UHGV virus genome: UHGV-0202355
Reading direction: 5' to 3' (one strand)
Source of the DNA: a virus
DNA: 17,538 bases
Positions 372-5,672 of this stretch are shown here, piece by piece (the first letter of the stretch is position 1; every line of letters starts with the position of its first letter). A program made the translations under genes and the position numbers. Under the pieces are notes generated by a model that saw only the letters and a list, made by a program, of their open reading frames with translations, was not told the DNA's origin and did no database searches.

Positions 372-701
372 CTATGCCACGACCTGTTCAAAATCTGCCG
401 TTATGGTTACCCACAACGCCCCCACGCTTGCCGACCATTTACGACAAACCACCCTGATCGGCTTCCAGTCATAAGGTGGCGTCCACTGAAATGCGCGGAC
501 GCCACCGTGCCGTTCCAGAAAGGCTTTTAAAGATGGGTGTTCACATTTACGAACACGTATCGTCACGCTGTAAGTCGACAACTGGTTATTCAGTCCCGCC
601 GCACGACGCTGTTCATAACCATCGCCCAGCTTCACTGTCACCACCTTCGGCTCCGATGCCACAGTCATATCAGGGCGAATTTTCCAGTGAAAAGTTTCCA
701 T
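372..701 (-). CDS. minor tail protein M (lambda gpM-like), 109 aa
   Basis: ORF translation METFHWKIRPDMTVASEPKV...WTPPYDWKPIRVVCRKW...FEQVVA has the same length as lambda gpM and aligns with it along its length (recalled sequence). Its ATG overlaps the tape measure stop as TAATG. Confidence 0.9.
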   Translation of the reverse strand: METFHWKIRPDMTVASEPKVVTVKLGDGYEQRRAAGLNNQLSTYSVTIRVRKCEHPSLKAFLERHGGVRAFQWTPPYDWKPIRVVCRKWSASVGALWVTITADFEQVVA

Positions 702-3700
702 TACCGATACGCTCCGCTTAACTGACCACCATCACGGGACTGCTGTTGCATAAAGTCCGCTGCTGCTTTTTTCCCGAGGTCATAAACCACCTTCAGGGCA
801 GCCGGACCTATCTGCCCGTTCGTACCATCGTTATTGATCTCGATGTTGTACTGCGGGGCAAACATCACCATACCTGAACCACCAATATCCGCCACAACTC
901 CCAGCTTGCCATCAGCACCACGACGCAGTGGCAGAATGGCTTCAGGCCCCGCTTCTCCCATCACACCCGCGCCTTTTGCAAAAGCAAAAAACGTCGGACG
1001 GTTAACCACCGTGCCACTGTAGCGACTCAAATCAGCAGACTGATAAACACCGCCATCCGCATTTGGCGTCACGCTGGCAGCTGCTGCACTCCCCCAGCCA
1101 AACGCCGAACCAATCCCCTTAACTGCCTGCATCATGGCCATCTGCGACATGATTTTTGCTAGATCAGAAAGGAGCGAGGCGGTAAAGGATTTGAAGTTCA
1201 GTTTTCCGGTGGTACAGAACGTCGCCAGTGCATTACCTGCGCTGTTAAATGCCGCTGTAAACATCTGCTCAGCGGTACCTGCCGCGTTATCCGCACTCTC
1301 TGTAAAATTCTGAAACGCCCGCATGGCACCGTTTTTCCAGTCTGCCTGCATCAGTTCCTGCTCCTGCCAGTAACGTCTGTTTTCGTTCAGTTGCCGGTTA
1401 AGACTGTCTGTCAGCATCTGCTCAGCATTCCGGTATTCATCTGTGCCGTATGTTCCTTTCTGCTTACTGTCACGCTCCAGCTGTTCCAGTTGCTGCTGGT
1501 ATTTTTGTTGCAGACTGAACTGCGCCTGGTATCGCTGACGCTGTTTATCCCCCATCCCTGTCGTGGCGATATCCAGGTCATGTTGCTGACGCAGAGTCCG
1601 TTCCTCTTCCGCCAGCTGGCTGGCAAGCTGAATAGATTTTTTCTTAAGGTCATTCAGCGCCGTCTGCTTCTGCAGCTCCTGCTGTTTTGCATCCAGCAGC
1701 GTCAGCGCCTGAATCAGTTCATCCTTATGCGCCAGCACGCTTTTTTCATCTGCCGTCAGCTTTTTACCGGCTAAATCACTGATACGCTGCTGCAGGGCCA
1801 GAAGCTGCTTATGCGCTTCCGTCATTTTTTCCGTGGTCAGTCCCGCGGACTGTCTGGCGGCGGCGATCTGCCCCTCCACCTGCGCCTGCTGCTGACTGTA
1901 CTGCAACAGCAACCGGGTAGCTTCATCATTGCGGTTTTCAGATGTTTTTTTCTTAATGGCTTTTTCGTAACGTTCATTTTCACGCTGTATCGCTGCGTCC
2001 CTGACCGCCTGATCGGCGTACTGCATGGCATTAATACGCGCAATTTCACGCTGATGTCGTGCTGCTTCCGTTTCGTTCATCCGGTTCAGCGCGGCATTTT
2101 CAGCATTCCGGCGTTTCTGCTGCTCCTGATAATTTCGCTCAGCCTGCTCTTTTGCATCCTGCAAATCCTGCTGGCGCTTTCGCTCTTGCAGCGCATCCAG
2201 TTGTTGCTGATCGTATTCCACCGTGGTGGACGCCTTAGTCCACGGAAATTTCTTCGCCCGCTGAATTTTTTCCTGCAGCGACGCAATCTGCGCATCAAGG
2301 GAATCTTCCCGACCAATGTTCATGGCCGCATCCCAGAACTGCTTCCACCAGTCAGACAAGGTTTGCAGCGTACTGCCCAGCGCATTGAGGTTATTATCAA
2401 TATCCGACGTACGTTTACCGGTTTCCTCTGCCAGTGCAGACATGGCTATCCGGGCGGCGTCACTGGTGCGCCCCTGCTCTCCGAGCACACGGATCTGTTC
2501 AAGCTGGGTGGCTGTCAGAAAATGCAGTTCATCATCCAGCGCCTTCGCAGCACTGACCGGATCATCCTTCAGCCGTTTAAACTGACTGATGGTGTCACTG
2601 ACAGACTGCCCTACCGAGCGTTCCATCTGTGCGGCAGCTTTCGCCACCATACCAATATCGTTACCGTGAAATGCACCGCTCCCCACTACCTGCGCCAGTG
2701 ACCCCGCCATGGCATGTTGCGTGATGCCATTACCGGAAAGATTTTTACTGAGCGCCCACAACTGCCCGACTGTCACACCGGCATAGTGTCCGGTGAGCTC
2801 AAGCTGCCGGTTAAAGGCTTCGCCTTCTTCCCGCCCCTCCATCCAGGCTTTACCCAGACCAATAACCGCAGCAGTGATCCCTCCGATAACCCCCCCCACC
2901 GCCAGGCCTTTCGGAGTCATTAATTTATCAATCCAGCCGGCACGGTTAGCCAGGGTGATCCCGGAGCCACGAAGCGCACCGAAATTACCCCGGGCAATTT
3001 CACCTATCAGAACACCCATCTCCTGGCGGGCCGCCGCACTTTTCAGCCCCAGCGAATGCGTGACCTTCCCGGCTTTTTCCATTTTGCTGATATACACCTC
3101 AGCCGCACTACTGACACCCAGCTGCGCGGCTTTTGCCCTGAGCAGCTCCGTGGATGAAAGATTCTGAGCGGATACCTGCTCCTTCAGCCGCCGGATAAAG
3201 GCCGTCTTCTGGCGGGCGGCGGATTCTTCAGCCTGAGCCAGCACGCGGGTTTTTGCCGTCACTTCGGAGATTAACGCCAGATAATCCTGCTGCGCGATGC
3301 CACCATTGTTTCTGGCCTGACGGACCTGCTGCTGAATACGCTGCAGCTCCTGCAGTCCGGCCCCCGCCTGTTTCACACTGTCAATCTGACGGTAAAATGC
3401 AGCAGCGGCTTTATCCTGAGCAGCAGCCAGTGCCGCCGCCTGCGCCTGCTCCTCGCGCATTTTCCGGTTCAGGGCATCAAGTCGCTGACGGGTCTTCTCC
3501 ACATTCTCCGCCAGCGAAACATGCTTCTGCGCATTCCCTGCCAGCGCCTGAGCCTGTTTCACTGCGGTGGTCGCCGCCTGCTTCTGACTCGCTTCAAACT
3601 GCCTGACCCGCGCCTCCGCACGCGCCGCTTCGCTGGCGGTACCGTTGAGCTGTGCTTTGATACGCGGAAGCTGTTCCTTAAAATCAGCCGCATCAACACT

Positions 3701-3733
3701 TAAATCAATAACAAGATCAGCTATCTGGCTCAA
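701..3733 (-). CDS. tail tape measure protein (lambda gpH-like), 1010 aa, probable TTG start
   Basis: Largest ORF in the window, sitting between the G/T chaperone pair and M. It has a long Q/A/E/R-rich coiled-coil middle region, hydrophobic Gly-rich segments and a conserved C-terminal region. The first codon at 3733-3731 is TTG, preceded by GGGAGG at 8 nt spacing; the next in-frame ATG is about 90 codons in. Confidence 0.9.
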   Translation of the reverse strand: MSQIADLVIDLSVDAADFKEQLPRIKAQLNGTASEAARAEARVRQFEASQKQAATTAVKQAQALAGNAQKHVSLAENVEKTRQRLDALNRKMREEQAQAAALAAAQDKAAAAFYRQIDSVKQAGAGLQELQRIQQQVRQARNNGGIAQQDYLALISEVTAKTRVLAQAEESAARQKTAFIRRLKEQVSAQNLSSTELLRAKAAQLGVSSAAEVYISKMEKAGKVTHSLGLKSAAARQEMGVLIGEIARGNFGALRGSGITLANRAGWIDKLMTPKGLAVGGVIGGITAAVIGLGKAWMEGREEGEAFNRQLELTGHYAGVTVGQLWALSKNLSGNGITQHAMAGSLAQVVGSGAFHGNDIGMVAKAAAQMERSVGQSVSDTISQFKRLKDDPVSAAKALDDELHFLTATQLEQIRVLGEQGRTSDAARIAMSALAEETGKRTSDIDNNLNALGSTLQTLSDWWKQFWDAAMNIGREDSLDAQIASLQEKIQRAKKFPWTKASTTVEYDQQQLDALQERKRQQDLQDAKEQAERNYQEQQKRRNAENAALNRMNETEAARHQREIARINAMQYADQAVRDAAIQRENERYEKAIKKKTSENRNDEATRLLLQYSQQQAQVEGQIAAARQSAGLTTEKMTEAHKQLLALQQRISDLAGKKLTADEKSVLAHKDELIQALTLLDAKQQELQKQTALNDLKKKSIQLASQLAEEERTLRQQHDLDIATTGMGDKQRQRYQAQFSLQQKYQQQLEQLERDSKQKGTYGTDEYRNAEQMLTDSLNRQLNENRRYWQEQELMQADWKNGAMRAFQNFTESADNAAGTAEQMFTAAFNSAGNALATFCTTGKLNFKSFTASLLSDLAKIMSQMAMMQAVKGIGSAFGWGSAAAASVTPNADGGVYQSADLSRYSGTVVNRPTFFAFAKGAGVMGEAGPEAILPLRRGADGKLGVVADIGGSGMVMFAPQYNIEINNDGTNGQIGPAALKVVYDLGKKAAADFMQQQSRDGGQLSGAYR

Positions 3734-4031
3734 TTCTTATTCCTCCCGCGATACCTTCCCCCAGAAACATCAGTTCTTCATCTGTCCGGACGAGCGCTTC
3801 TGTCTCTGAGGGCAACAGGCTGAACATATCCGCCGCTACGGTTTTTCCGGAAACCATCTGCACAATCAGCGTTTTCAGTGTGGCAAATTGCGCATCCAGC
3901 CACACATCACTGAAACTCTGCCGCCGGAAATAATCCCCCCACTCTCCCAGTTCTGTGGCTGACATTTCTGACAGCATTCGCCGCCAGTCGCCCCGCCGGA
4001 ACTCCCGGGCCAGCCGCATGACAAACTGCAT
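3717..4031 (-). CDS. tail assembly chaperone T segment (lambda gpT-like), expected to be made only as a G-T fusion by -1 frameshifting
   Basis: 104-aa ORF in the -1 frame relative to G, lying between G and the tape measure as in lambda. The T frame is open upstream to 4073, overlapping the end of G, and has no convincing SD of its own. Confidence 0.75.
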   Translation of the reverse strand: MQFVMRLAREFRRGDWRRMLSEMSATELGEWGDYFRRQSFSDVWLDAQFATLKTLIVQMVSGKTVAADMFSLLPSETEALVRTDEELMFLGEGIAGGIRIEPDS

Positions 4032-4039
4032 TTCCTGCG

Positions 4040-4429
4040 TCAGGACTTTTCCGGCGTCAGCACCTCCTTCACATCATCCCCCTCTGTCGCCACTGTCAGT
4101 GCCATACCGCTCAGCGCCAGAATGCTTTCCGCCGCCACCCCCAGCGCATCCCAGGACCATGTCACGCGCACGGAGGAAAAAAGCGCCGCCACATTCTGAG
4201 ACTGGTCGGCATTCCACAACGAACGGGAAACCAGCCAAGCGTTGATGTCCATCCCCATTTCCATAAAAGCAATCTGGCGGGCCCCTTCTTCCATTCCTGC
4301 AGAAGCCTCATCAAACTGCGCCGCGCGTTCACGGGCATAAGCCAGGTATTCCACACGCTGCAGACCAGACAGTTCATTCAGTACCACCGACTGATTGCCG
4401 TAATTAAACGTATCCTGTTTCAGAAACAT
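4040..4429 (-). CDS. tail assembly chaperone G (lambda gpG-like), 129 aa
   Basis: Starts MFLK like lambda gpG, has a similar length, and sits between V and T. GGGAG SD lies 7 nt upstream of the ATG at 4429. Confidence 0.85.
   Translation of the reverse strand: MFLKQDTFNYGNQSVVLNELSGLQRVEYLAYARERAAQFDEASAGMEEGARQIAFMEMGMDINAWLVSRSLWNADQSQNVAALFSSVRVTWSWDALGVAAESILALSGMALTVATEGDDVKEVLTPEKS
4046..4052 (-). promoter_or_regulatory. candidate -1 programmed ribosomal frameshift site (G GAA AAG) producing the G-T fusion
   Basis: The last codons of G read CCG GAA AAG TCC TGA; the -1 frame reads GGA AAA GTC CTG ACG CAG GAA ATG (T frame). This is the only slippery-like heptamer inside the 34-nt G/T overlap. 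An SD-like AAGGAGGTG (4069-4061) lies 8 nt upstream, an arrangement resembling the dnaX frameshift stimulator. Confidence 0.55.
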
Positions 4430-4446
4430 CTCTCTTCTCCCCGAAT

Positions 4447-4467
4447 AAAAAAACCCGGCGAACCGGG
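4447..4467 (-). terminator. intrinsic terminator between major tail gene V and G
   Basis: Minus strand reads CCCGG-UUCG-CCGGG followed by UUUUUUUAUU (plus strand: A-run 4447-4453, stem 4454-4458 and 4463-4467). Confidence 0.6.
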
Positions 4468-4489
4468 GCTGATGATAAATATGGCCCTG

Positions 4490-5260
4490 TTATCCCCGGG
4501 CGCGTCCGGTACTCTTCTCCTCAGCAGGGGCCACGGTCACCGTGACCACCTGCCCCGTACTGCCATTACCGCTCATACCCACAATATTGACCACACCTTC
4601 CTGGCGGGCAGATACCGTAGCCACAAGGCCGCTCAGGCTTACCGTTGCTGTCTGCGGATCCGTGGAAAACACCGTGAGCGTTTTATCCGAGGCGTTTTCC
4701 GGTACAAGCGCAAACGTCAGTACGGACGTTTCACCAGGGTGCAGTGTCACCGCCGTCGGTGTCACCGTCACACCGGTGACGCTGACCACCTCCTGACACT
4801 CTTCCGCCAGGTACGGACGCCCAATCCCAGTGATTTTGATGGTCCGGGTCATCACTTCCGTTGACGTCACCGCCTTGCCCAGCGAACTCAACCAGCCACG
4901 AAAAACATCAACTGTGCCGTTGGGGTACAGAATGCGAAACGCACAAACCTCGCCGGAATAAAACAACTCAACCAGTTTTTTCTGTCCGCTGTCGCCCGGA
5001 CGCCATGCCAGTGTGGCAGACGTATCGCCAGCGGTTTTCTGGCCCTGAGATGTGCTCTTCCAGTCCGCATTCTCATCATCAAGATACGTGTCATCTTCTG
5101 CATCAGCGGTCATTTCGCCAGGTTGCAGATCCTTCACCATCGCAAGACGCAGCCAGGCAGTGTCCGACAAAGGGTTCGCAAACGCATCGCCGTTGCCGGT
5201 ATACATCCAGAACGTTGTCCCCGCACCTTTCGTCTTTGCCAGTGGATTTGGTGTGGTCAT
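4490..5260 (-). CDS. major tail protein (lambda gpV-like) with C-terminal Ig-like (Big_2-type) domain, 256 aa
   Basis: Translation MTTPNPLAKTKGAGTTFWMYTGNGDAFANPLSD...NGTVDVFRGW parallels lambda gpV (recalled), and the C-terminus is a Thr/Val-rich Ig-like region. Start chosen at the internal ATG 5260, preceded by AAGGAGGTGGTA; the longer ORF-track N-terminus is an artefact. Confidence 0.9.
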   Translation of the reverse strand: MTTPNPLAKTKGAGTTFWMYTGNGDAFANPLSDTAWLRLAMVKDLQPGEMTADAEDDTYLDDENADWKSTSQGQKTAGDTSATLAWRPGDSGQKKLVELFYSGEVCAFRILYPNGTVDVFRGWLSSLGKAVTSTEVMTRTIKITGIGRPYLAEECQEVVSVTGVTVTPTAVTLHPGETSVLTFALVPENASDKTLTVFSTDPQTATVSLSGLVATVSARQEGVVNIVGMSGNGSTGQVVTVTVAPAEEKSTGRARG

Positions 5261-5270
5261 TACCACCTCC

Positions 5271-5672
5271 TTAATTCGTGTACGTGATCTGGTACGTGAT
5301 TTCCGCCATCGCCCAGGTGGCCATCTCATTATCACGTTGATAGTTAAAACCGAGTGGGTTCATGGTGTCGATGAGTCCGGAAAGTGCCGGTACATCATTC
5401 AGGGCCGGGAAAATGGTGCTCTCCATCCACGTATCCAGCTCTGAATCCGGTGCCTGTGCCCGGATGAAGACGGCAATATGCAGAACAGCCTGCCAGTCAT
5501 CTTCATCCGTCATTTTTCCGGTGTACTGTGCATCACTCAGCCACACCGCCACGGCAGGCAGTTCCTGCGCATCAACAAATGCCGGAAGCCCGTCAAAAAA
5601 CGTGGCGCTGTCTCCACACTGTTCCCGAAGGCGTGCCAGTACGACCTGGCGGATTTGTGTATGTCGGTTCAT
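5271..5672 (-). CDS. tail terminator protein (lambda gpU-like), about 133 aa
   Basis: MNRHTQIRQVVLARL...ATFFDG...PAVAVWL...DSELDTWMES aligns with lambda gpU (recalled). Start chosen at ATG 5672, which overlaps the Z stop as ATGA; the alternative ATG at 5684 would add 4 residues. Confidence 0.85.
   Translation of the reverse strand: MNRHTQIRQVVLARLREQCGDSATFFDGLPAFVDAQELPAVAVWLSDAQYTGKMTDEDDWQAVLHIAVFIRAQAPDSELDTWMESTIFPALNDVPALSGLIDTMNPLGFNYQRDNEMATWAMAEITYQITYTN

What the first reader, a model, noticed from the sequence alone, without database searches (positions are those of the whole stretch)
4031..4073. G-T frameshift uses a non-canonical heptamer with an upstream SD-like stimulator
The only slippery-like sequence in the G/T overlap is G GAA AAG rather than lambda-type G GGA AAG, so P-site re-pairing would be imperfect. 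An AAGGAGGTG element 8 nt upstream could stimulate -1 slippage through anti-SD pairing, as described for dnaX. This predicts a low-abundance G-T fusion made by a mechanistically variant site.
Basis: partly seen in the sequence, partly recalled or inferred. Interest (0 to 1): 0.5.

Follow-up and report, generated by a model that had tools for sequence, protein, structure and literature searches.

The report
Ordinary G-T frameshift site, possible SD booster
This is the tail-chaperone (G/GT) -1 frameshift site of a lambda-like E. coli prophage; its "odd" slippery sequence GGAAAAG is the commonest form in this gene family and is already annotated in phage N15, and the strong ribosome-binding-like sequence just upstream is real and well placed but shows no sign of being selected.

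Summary
On the minus strand, gene G (4429..4040) ends ...GTG AAG GAG GTG CTG ACG CCG GAA AAG TCC TGA. The T frame is -1 and open from 4073. The only shift-prone site in the 33-nt overlap is G_GAA_AAG (4052..4046). A perfect 9-nt Shine-Dalgarno match, AAGGAGGTG (4069..4061), lies 8 nt upstream.

The heptamer is not unusual. In 55 distinct junctions from enterobacterial prophages, 42 carry GGAAAAG at the position of lambda's GGGAAAG. The lambda form is the minority. The N15 RefSeq record already marks GGAAAAG as the slippery sequence. The T-frame Lys codon is AAA in 61 of 61 sequences, and T-frame protein conservation starts at that codon, before any start codon. So a GT fusion (237 aa) made by tRNA-Lys slippage at A_AAG is well supported.

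The SD-like element is specific to this lineage. The sister clade keeps only GAGGTG or GAGGCG, and N15, phi80 and lambda have nothing there. A synonymous-codon null gives 26 SD-like sites observed against 25.8 expected across the family. For this window, 6.5% of shuffles are as strong. It may raise frameshifting as in dnaX or B. subtilis cdd, but that is untested.

Verdict: a new member of a known kind, of low interest.

The parts
4040..4429 (-). Gene G, tail assembly chaperone (129 aa); zero frame of the frameshift
   Evidence: ORF list, translation, PF06894 E = 6.5e-35. Annotated as gpG in E. coli genomes that are 98-99% identical.
3717..4049 (-). T-frame coding part, read after the shift (K-V-L-T-Q-E-M-Q-F...; 110 codons plus stop)
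   Evidence: Translation, PF06223. It aligns without gaps to 60 other T sequences starting at the Lys codon.
3717..4429 (-). Predicted GT fusion: G residues 1-128 joined to T-frame residues, 237 aa
   Evidence: Computed. The junction ...TPEK|VLTQEMQF is in register with lambda ...SAGK|VFDGELSF.
4046..4052 (-). Shift heptamer G_GAA_AAG (zero-frame codons GAA, AAG; -1-frame codons GGA, AAA)
   Evidence: Sequence. The same heptamer sits at the homologous position in 42 of 55 distinct junctions. The N15 record annotates it as 'slippery sequence for -1 translational frameshift'. The T-frame AAA is invariant in 61 of 61 sequences.
4061..4069 (-). SD-like AAGGAGGTG inside G (codons K-E-V), 8 nt upstream of the heptamer
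   Evidence: Sequence. Duplex with the 16S 3' end is -15.0 kcal/mol. Three copies in the window against 0.14 expected, the other two being RBSs. No start codon follows within RBS range.
4074..4076 (-). TGA in the -1 frame; upstream limit of the G/T overlap
4040..4042 (-). G stop codon TGA, two codons after the shift site
   Evidence: In relatives the G stop lies 1, 2 or 6 codons after the site.
4029..4031 (-). ATG that PGAP uses as the start of a separate T CDS; probably not the real way T is expressed
   Evidence: PGAP annotation in L001 and L002. The only SD-like AGGA is 1 nt from this ATG. There is no conserved start codon at this position in the family.
701..3733 (-). Tape measure gene downstream of T (context)
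   Evidence: ORF list; PF06791, PF09718 and PF24622.
4490..5260 (-). Tail tube gene (lambda V type) upstream of G (context)
   Evidence: PF16461 and Big_2. RBS AAGGAGGTGGTAATG at 5272..5258. PGAP CDS length 771 nt.

Best explanation
This is the programmed -1 ribosomal frameshift site of a lambda-type tail assembly chaperone pair in an E. coli prophage. Most ribosomes finish G at TGA 4042..4040. A small fraction slip back one base when tRNA-Lys sits on AAG (4048..4046) and re-pairs with AAA (4049..4047). The P-site tRNA-Glu moves from GAA to GGA, which leaves only a G.U or mismatch at the second position. Translation then continues with GTC CTG ACG... and gives a 237-aa GT fusion.

The heptamer G_GAA_AAG is the usual form in this family, not an exception. 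In effect it works as an A_AAG single-tRNA slip. The perfect 9-nt SD-like AAGGAGGTG upstream can pair with the 16S rRNA of the elongating ribosome. At this distance it probably raises the shift frequency somewhat. It is a lineage-specific by-product or modulator, not a conserved or required part of the signal.

Shown: the anatomy, the frames, the homology and the conservation of the site. Inferred: that the shift occurs, its frequency, and any effect of the SD.
For: Context:
- G and T match the lambda families PF06894 and PF06223 and lie between the tail tube and tape measure genes.
- T is in the -1 frame with a 33-nt overlap.

The site:
- The heptamer is homologous in position to lambda's G_GGA_AAG, with the junction K|V in register.
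- GGAAAAG is found in 42 of 55 distinct junctions across Escherichia, Citrobacter, Kluyvera, Enterobacter, Proteus, Providencia, Sodalis and others. It is also in N15, phi80, HK225, mEp460, Fels-1, Gifsy-1 and Gifsy-2.
- N15's RefSeq record marks it as the slippery sequence.
- The T-frame Lys codon is AAA in 61 of 61 sequences. T-frame protein conservation (K1, E6, F9, LAREF...) begins at the shift site, and first Met positions vary.
- Other family variants (GGCAAAA, GGTAAAG, AGAAAAG) keep the A-site slip but not the P-site re-pairing.

The SD-like element:
- Duplex energy is -15 kcal/mol.
- It fits the 6-17 nt rule used by Sharma et al. 2014.

Precedents:
- dnaX.
- B. subtilis cdd: a -1 shift at CGA_AAG, 16% efficient, with an RBS-like sequence 14 bp upstream.
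Against: - No protein data exist for this prophage.
- G_GAA_AAG gave mainly zero-frame product in a reconstituted E. coli system and was used there as the 'less slippery' sequence (PMC6924986).
- The A_AAG tetramer alone is barely above background in vivo without a stimulator (about 0.15% against 0.11%, PMC4066793).

Against a role for the SD:
- It is absent from most relatives, including N15, phi80 and lambda.
- Family-wide there are 26 SD-like sites observed against 25.8 expected under a synonymous-codon null. For the window, 6.5% of shuffles are as strong.
- 26 of 74 sister-clade sequences carry GAGGCG instead of GAGGTG.
- The raw spacing of 8 nt is shorter than the dnaX optimum.
Confidence: 0.8

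Rival explanations
1. The SD-like AAGGAGGTG is a selected, necessary stimulator that makes up for a weak heptamer. This is the first reader's model: a dnaX-like mechanism as a designed feature of this site.
For: - It is a perfect 9-nt complement to the 16S 3' end, -15 kcal/mol.
- The 9-mer is otherwise used only as an RBS in this window: 3 copies against 0.14 expected.
- No start codon follows it.
- It lies within the experimentally stimulatory range.
- The GAGG core sits at the same place in all 74 sister-clade sequences sampled.
- The heptamer is intrinsically weak.
- No downstream structure is available as an alternative stimulator.
Against: - Phages with the same heptamer (N15, phi80, HK225 and the E-P-V-T clade) have no SD-like sequence there. 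Many have weaker anti-SD affinity than synonymous shuffles give.
- Family-wide, observed equals expected: 26 against 25.8.
- The window's own codon choice is not significant: 6.5% of shuffles match it.
- The apparent positional enrichment (26 of 64 against 9-13 of 64 in shifted controls) follows from a conserved Glu codon in an acidic tail.
- Sister-clade variants weaken the SD (GTG to GCG) without loss of the site.
Confidence: 0.25
2. T is made on its own, by initiation or termination-reinitiation at ATG 4031, as PGAP annotates it. No frameshift is used.
For: - The ATG at 4031 lies 9 nt after the G stop.
- PGAP calls a separate 104-aa T CDS in the near-identical E. coli prophages.
Against: - The only SD-like AGGA is 1 nt from that ATG, and the strong SD is 29 nt upstream.
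- There is no conserved start codon in the family. Some members have no Met before residue 25 of the conserved domain.
- T-frame amino-acid conservation starts at the Lys of the heptamer, upstream of the ATG, and that AAA is invariant.
- The -1 frame is open back to the heptamer in every member.
- From memory, Levin, Hendrix and Casjens 1993 showed that lambda T is made only as GT.
Confidence: 0.05
3. The GT fusion arises by transcriptional slippage of RNA polymerase on the A run rather than by ribosomal slippage.
For: The site contains a run of four A residues.
Against: - By established knowledge, productive transcriptional slippage in bacteria needs homopolymer runs of roughly 8-9 or more. 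Four A is far too short.
- Family variants such as GGCAAAA and GGTAAAG keep only the A_AAR pattern expected for tRNA-Lys slippage.
Confidence: 0.02

Closest known systems
Bacteriophage N15 genes 14/15 (also phi80, HK225, Gifsy-1/2, Fels-1, mEp460/cdtI): lambda-type G/GT frameshift at GGAAAAG
   Same: - Same gene families, gene order and -1 frame relation.
- Same heptamer at the homologous codon.
- The N15 record explicitly annotates GGAAAAG as the slippery sequence.
   Different: - N15, phi80 and HK225 have no SD-like sequence in the 6-17 nt window upstream.
- Here the G stop is 2 codons after the site, against 6 in N15.
Bacteriophage lambda G/GT frameshift at G_GGA_AAG (Levin, Hendrix and Casjens 1993; Xu, Hendrix and Duda 2004, 2013)
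   Same: - Homologous G and T.
- The shift is at the same Lys codon, and the K|V junction is in register.
- The fusion is expected to be a low-abundance tail assembly chaperone.
   Different: - The P-site codon is GAA (Glu) instead of GGA (Gly), so P-site re-pairing is near-cognate only.
- T identity to lambda is only about 38%.
- Lambda has no upstream SD-like element.
B. subtilis cdd -1 frameshift at CGA_AAG with an upstream RBS-like stimulator (Mejlhede, Atkins and Neuhard 1999)
   Same: - Single tRNA-Lys slip on A_AAG, with a P-site codon that cannot re-pair properly.
- Close to the zero-frame stop.
- SD-like sequence upstream.
   Different: - Different gene and organism.
- The SD there is 14 bp upstream and was tested experimentally. 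Here the spacing is 8 nt raw, or about 11 nt when aligned on the anti-SD register, and nothing has been tested.
E. coli dnaX frameshift (A_AAA_AAG with an SD 10 nt upstream and a 3' stem-loop; Larsen et al. 1994)
   Same: An internal SD-like sequence upstream of an AAG-ending shift site in E. coli.
   Different: - dnaX has a fully slippery heptamer and a strong 3' hairpin, and shifts at about 50%.
- Here there is no significant 3' structure, and the expected level is low.

Membership tests
Lambda-type G/GT tail assembly chaperone frameshift | Two overlapping ORFs between the major tail (tube) gene and the tape measure gene | tested here: met
   The order is tail tube 5260..4490, G 4429..4040, T frame 4073..3717, TMP 3733..701, all on the minus strand.
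Lambda-type G/GT tail assembly chaperone frameshift | Sequence homology to lambda G and T | tested here: met
   PF06894 E = 6.5e-35 and PF06223 E = 5.3e-11, both above the gathering scores.
Lambda-type G/GT tail assembly chaperone frameshift | The downstream ORF is in the -1 frame and lacks its own conserved start; conservation begins at the shift site | tested here: met
   Frames. Sixty-one T sequences align from the invariant AAA Lys codon, with variable first Met positions.
Lambda-type G/GT tail assembly chaperone frameshift | A shift-prone sequence in the overlap, in the right frame | tested here: met
   G_GAA_AAG at 4052..4046. The same heptamer is found in 42 of 55 homologous junctions and is annotated as slippery in N15.
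Lambda-type G/GT tail assembly chaperone frameshift | A GT fusion protein is actually produced at a few percent of G | not testable with these tools
   This needs a reporter assay or mass spectrometry.
Canonical X_XXY_YYZ tandem-slippage heptamer | Both the P-site and the A-site tRNA can re-pair in the -1 frame at the first two codon positions | tested here: not met
   The A site (AAG to AAA) is fine. The P site (GAA to GGA) has a second-position G.U or mismatch (the same point is made in PMC6924986).
SD-stimulated -1 frameshift (dnaX / IS911 / cdd type) | An internal sequence complementary to the 16S rRNA 3' end | tested here: met
   AAGGAGGTG, 9 of 9 complementary, -15.0 kcal/mol.
SD-stimulated -1 frameshift (dnaX / IS911 / cdd type) | Spacing within the experimentally stimulatory range | tested here: inconclusive
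   [quoted passage not shown] The raw spacer of 8 nt is below the dnaX optimum of 10-14, and the dnaX effect is lost at 7. Aligned on the anti-SD register it is about 11 nt against 10 in dnaX; that alignment is my inference from the dnaX sequence recalled from memory.
SD-stimulated -1 frameshift (dnaX / IS911 / cdd type) | The SD-like element is conserved among homologues or favoured at synonymous sites | tested here: not met
   26 of 64 have an SD-like tetramer or pentamer, against 25.8 expected from synonymous shuffles. Mean duplex energy is -4.33 observed against -4.83 null. For the window, 6.5% of shuffles are as strong. Only the GAGG core persists in the closely related sister clade.
SD-stimulated -1 frameshift (dnaX / IS911 / cdd type) | Frameshift level drops when the SD is mutated | not testable with these tools
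   This needs a reporter assay.

The most novel reading that the evidence does not exclude
Most lambda-type G/T sites, this one included, use G_GAA_AAG. In reconstituted translation this sequence behaves as a poorly slippery control. The family shows no conserved upstream SD and no conserved 3' structure. Either GT is needed at much lower levels than in lambda, or an unrecognised stimulator sets the shift rate. Candidates are the acidic nascent C-terminal tail of G, the zero-frame stop 1-6 codons downstream, or a special tolerance of tRNA-Glu for a second-position G.U in the P site. In this lineage the perfect SD would then be an add-on that tunes the G:GT ratio.
Probability: 0.2. Interest if true: 0.5.

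Novelty: new member of a known kind. Interest (0 to 1): 0.2.

Why it matters
There is little here for discovery. The G/GT frameshift has been a textbook recoding event since 1993, and the GGAAAAG form is already annotated in N15.

Two modest practical points follow:
- Annotation pipelines (PGAP) still call T as a separate CDS from an internal ATG. A rule that recognises [GA]G[N]AAA[GA] at the G/T junction would give the correct fused product in many enterobacterial prophages.
- For people who study frameshifting, lambda's G_GGA_AAG is the minority form. The common natural site is one used in vitro as a "less slippery" control. This prophage (strong SD) and N15 or phi80 (no SD) would make a natural pair for measuring what an upstream SD adds to an A_AAG slip.

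Tried and rejected
- Downstream stimulator. Folding 60 and 100 nt after the heptamer gave z-scores of +0.75 and -1.15. The UCCUG-ACG-CAGGA hairpin starts right at the heptamer's 3' edge, too close for the 4-10 nt rule, and is not conserved. An RNAalifold run on 13 diverse junctions gave -4.5 kcal/mol with covariation of -0.14. Rejected.
- Rfam scan of 3850..4250 at E up to 10 gave only noise.
- Family-wide synonymous conservation downstream of the site: none beyond the invariant AAA.
- SD as an RBS for an internal start: no ATG, GTG or TTG lies within 4-12 nt of it. Rejected.
- Apparent positional enrichment of SD-like motifs (26 of 64 against 9-13 of 64 in shifted controls). It disappeared under a synonymous-codon null. 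It comes from a conserved Glu codon in an acidic tail.
- Ribosome collision at the slow UGA-C stop as a stimulator: a trailing ribosome would sit about 30 nt upstream, not on the heptamer. Rejected by geometry (inference only).
- Literature. Xu et al. 2004 and Mejlhede et al. 1999 are not held. Text searches for GGAAAAG together with phage terms gave nothing specific.

Full report
**1. What is there**

All genes in this part of the window lie on the minus strand.
- The ORF 4429..4040 encodes a 129-aa protein that matches the lambda tail assembly chaperone G family (PF06894, E = 6.5e-35).
- The frame shifted by -1 is open from 4073 to 3717 and matches lambda minor tail protein T (PF06223).
- A lambda-type tail tube gene lies upstream, and a 1010-aa tape measure gene follows.

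The 3' end of G reads GTG AAG GAG GTG CTG ACG CCG GAA AAG TCC TGA. A -1-frame TGA at 4076..4074 and the G stop at 4042..4040 bound a 33-nt overlap. Within it, only A_AAG satisfies the Z_ZZN rule for A-site slippage. With the preceding codon the heptamer is G_GAA_AAG at 4052..4046. AAGGAGGTG lies at 4069..4061, 8 nt upstream.

**2. Where the window comes from**

The G-T region is 98-99% identical to prophages in two E. coli chromosomes. It is 99-100% identical at the T-protein level to six IMG/VR viral contigs. The next relatives, at about 75% nucleotide identity, are the very common CP-933M/Sp3, mEp460, cdtI and Ayreon-type prophages, found in 1,295 of 5,426 E. coli genomes.

**3. The heptamer is the family norm**

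I scanned one genome per bacterial species with a T-domain alignment and extracted the junctions.
- Among 55 distinct sequences, 42 have GGAAAAG at the position homologous to lambda's GGGAAAG.
- The lambda form appears only in the three lambda-type junction variants (L064, L065, L072), in an Edwardsiella prophage and in an E. albertii prophage.
- Other variants are GGCAAAA, AGAAAAG, GGTAAAG and GGGAAAA. VT1-Sakai has AAAAAAG.
- N15, phi80, HK225, mEp460, Fels-1, Gifsy-1 and Gifsy-2 all have GGAAAAG.
- The N15 RefSeq record carries a misc_feature 'slippery sequence for -1 translational frameshift' on exactly these seven bases.

So the non-canonical heptamer is both common and already recognised.

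**4. Evidence that the shift happens here**

- The junction is in register with lambda...SAGK|VFDGELSFALKLARE in lambda against ...TPEK|VLTQEMQFVMRLARE here.
- Sixty-one distinct T-frame sequences align without gaps from that Lys codon.
- Lys1, Phe9 and the LA.E core of LAREF are invariant, and Glu6 is nearly so.
- The first Met varies in position, and some sequences have none before residue 25.
- The Lys codon in the T frame is AAA in 61 of 61 sequences.
- The -1 frame is open back to the heptamer in all members, and the G stop is always 1, 2 or 6 codons after it.

These facts argue against independent initiation of T, although PGAP annotates T from ATG 4031. That ATG has only an AGGA 1 nt upstream. 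The predicted GT fusion is 237 aa.

**5. How it most likely works**

The A-site tRNA-Lys re-pairs perfectly (AAG to AAA). The P-site tRNA-Glu would face GGA, which gives a second-position G.U or mismatch. Family variants with GCA or GTA in the P site cannot re-pair at all. The conserved element is therefore effectively the A_AAR tetramer, preceded by GG or AG.

This agrees with Sharma et al. 2014 (PMC4066793), who found that in E. coli cognate A-site re-pairing is what matters, and that A_AAG is by far the best tetramer. They measured it at up to 5.6% with a pseudoknot but only about 0.15% without a stimulator.

Peng et al. 2019 (PMC6924986) used G_GAA_AAG as their less slippery mRNA and obtained mainly zero-frame product. 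PRFect (PMC10885494) has already proposed non-canonical tail-chaperone motifs and G.U re-pairing of GAA on GGA. A low GT yield is therefore expected. This suits a product that in lambda is needed at roughly 1:30 (review PMC5009743).

**6. The SD-like element**

It is real and strong: -15.0 kcal/mol against the 16S 3' end. The 9-mer occurs three times in the window against 0.14 expected by chance. The other two copies are true ribosome-binding sites, both reading AAGGAGGTGGTAATG, at the tail tube gene and at the gene starting near 8995. No start codon follows the copy inside G, so it is not an RBS.

[quoted passage not shown] Its raw 8-nt spacer is shorter than the 10-14 nt optimum reported for dnaX, where the effect disappears at 7 nt. 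Aligned on the anti-SD register it is about 11 nt against 10 in dnaX. That alignment is my inference and relies on the dnaX sequence as I remember it.

Comparison with relatives does not support a selected role.
- The sister clade keeps only GAGGTG (48 sequences) or GAGGCG (26).
- N15, phi80, HK225 and lambda have nothing in that window.
- A first count looked like enrichment: 26 of 64 against 9-13 of 64 in shifted control windows.
- A null that keeps each protein sequence and reshuffles synonymous codons gives 25.8 expected against 26 observed. Mean energies are -4.33 observed and -4.83 null.
- The positional signal comes from a conserved Glu codon in an acidic tail.
- For this window, 6.5% of synonymous shuffles are at least as strong.
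- Two other internal sites in the window are equally strong (4793 and 2884).

My estimate is about 50% that it measurably raises frameshifting here, because the physical effect is well documented. I put about 25% on it being a selected, required stimulator.

**7. No other stimulator was found**

- The region downstream of the heptamer does not fold better than shuffles.
- A 13-sequence consensus fold is negligible.
- Rfam finds nothing.

One local oddity remains. Between this prophage and the sister clade, nucleotide identity is 97% from 4066 to about 3990, against 60-75% elsewhere. There is only one synonymous difference in T codons 1-23, against 14 in codons 24-66. More distant relatives do not share this block. 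A recombination tract is as likely an explanation as an RNA element.

**8. Comparison with what is known, and verdict**

In family terms this is a member of the lambda-type G/GT frameshift class, N15 subtype. All testable defining features are met. It is not a canonical X_XXY_YYZ site.

In mechanism it most resembles B. subtilis cdd, which shifts at CGA_AAG and has an RBS-like sequence 14 bp upstream. Membership in the SD-stimulated class fails the conservation test and cannot be tested functionally here.

The finding is a correct reading of an ordinary, already annotated type of site. It adds a plausible but unsupported lineage-specific SD hypothesis. Interest is low.

Noticed in passing
window 3990-4066 (minus strand), compared with L003: This block is 97% identical at nucleotide level to the otherwise about 75%-identical sister clade. 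It starts exactly at GAGGTG and runs about 60 nt past the G stop. There is only 1 synonymous difference in T codons 1-23, against 14 in codons 24-66. It could be a recombination tract or a lineage-specific RNA constraint.
   Followed up: partly
window 5258-5272 and 8995-9009 (minus strand): Two gene starts, the tail tube gene and the gene downstream of portal, use the identical 15-mer AAGGAGGTGGTAATG as RBS plus start codon. The same 9-mer core recurs inside G.
   Followed up: partly
window 4446-4468 (minus strand): A terminator-like hairpin, CCCGG-TTCG-CCGGG followed by T7, lies between the tail tube gene and G. Ayreon, mEp460 and N15 annotate a rho-independent terminator at the same place.
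   Followed up: no
L001, L002, L003 (E. coli RefSeq annotation of the same locus): PGAP annotates T as a separate CDS from an internal ATG and does not join G and T. Many phage records do the same. The GT fusion is systematically missing from annotation.
   Followed up: partly
L065-L077, L080-L084 (genome-contig hits): Sixteen identical lambda G/T junctions sit on short, low-coverage contigs of unrelated organisms (Kitasatospora, Neobacillus, Oceanobacillus, Shewanella, Leeuwenhoekiella, Enterococcus and others). This is almost certainly lambda DNA contamination or spike-in in those assemblies.
   Followed up: no
L017, L018, L021, L022, L043, L045, L044, L170: Rarer heptamers occur at the same junction: GGCAAAA (Ewingella, Kluyvera), AGAAAAG (Morganella), GGTAAAG (Pantoea), GGGAAAA (Providencia) and AAAAAAG (VT1-Sakai). 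Several of them rule out any P-site re-pairing.
   Followed up: partly
all junction loci: The base after the heptamer is always a pyrimidine, and the G stop is always 1, 2 or 6 codons downstream. Both could be protein-coding constraints, or they could contribute to shift efficiency.
   Followed up: no
window 4784-4793 and 2875-2884 (minus strand): Two other very strong internal SD-like sequences lie inside the tail tube Ig-like domain (GGAGGTGGTC, -17.8 kcal/mol) and the tape measure gene (GGAGGGATCA, -15.3 kcal/mol). Neither has an obvious function.
   Followed up: no
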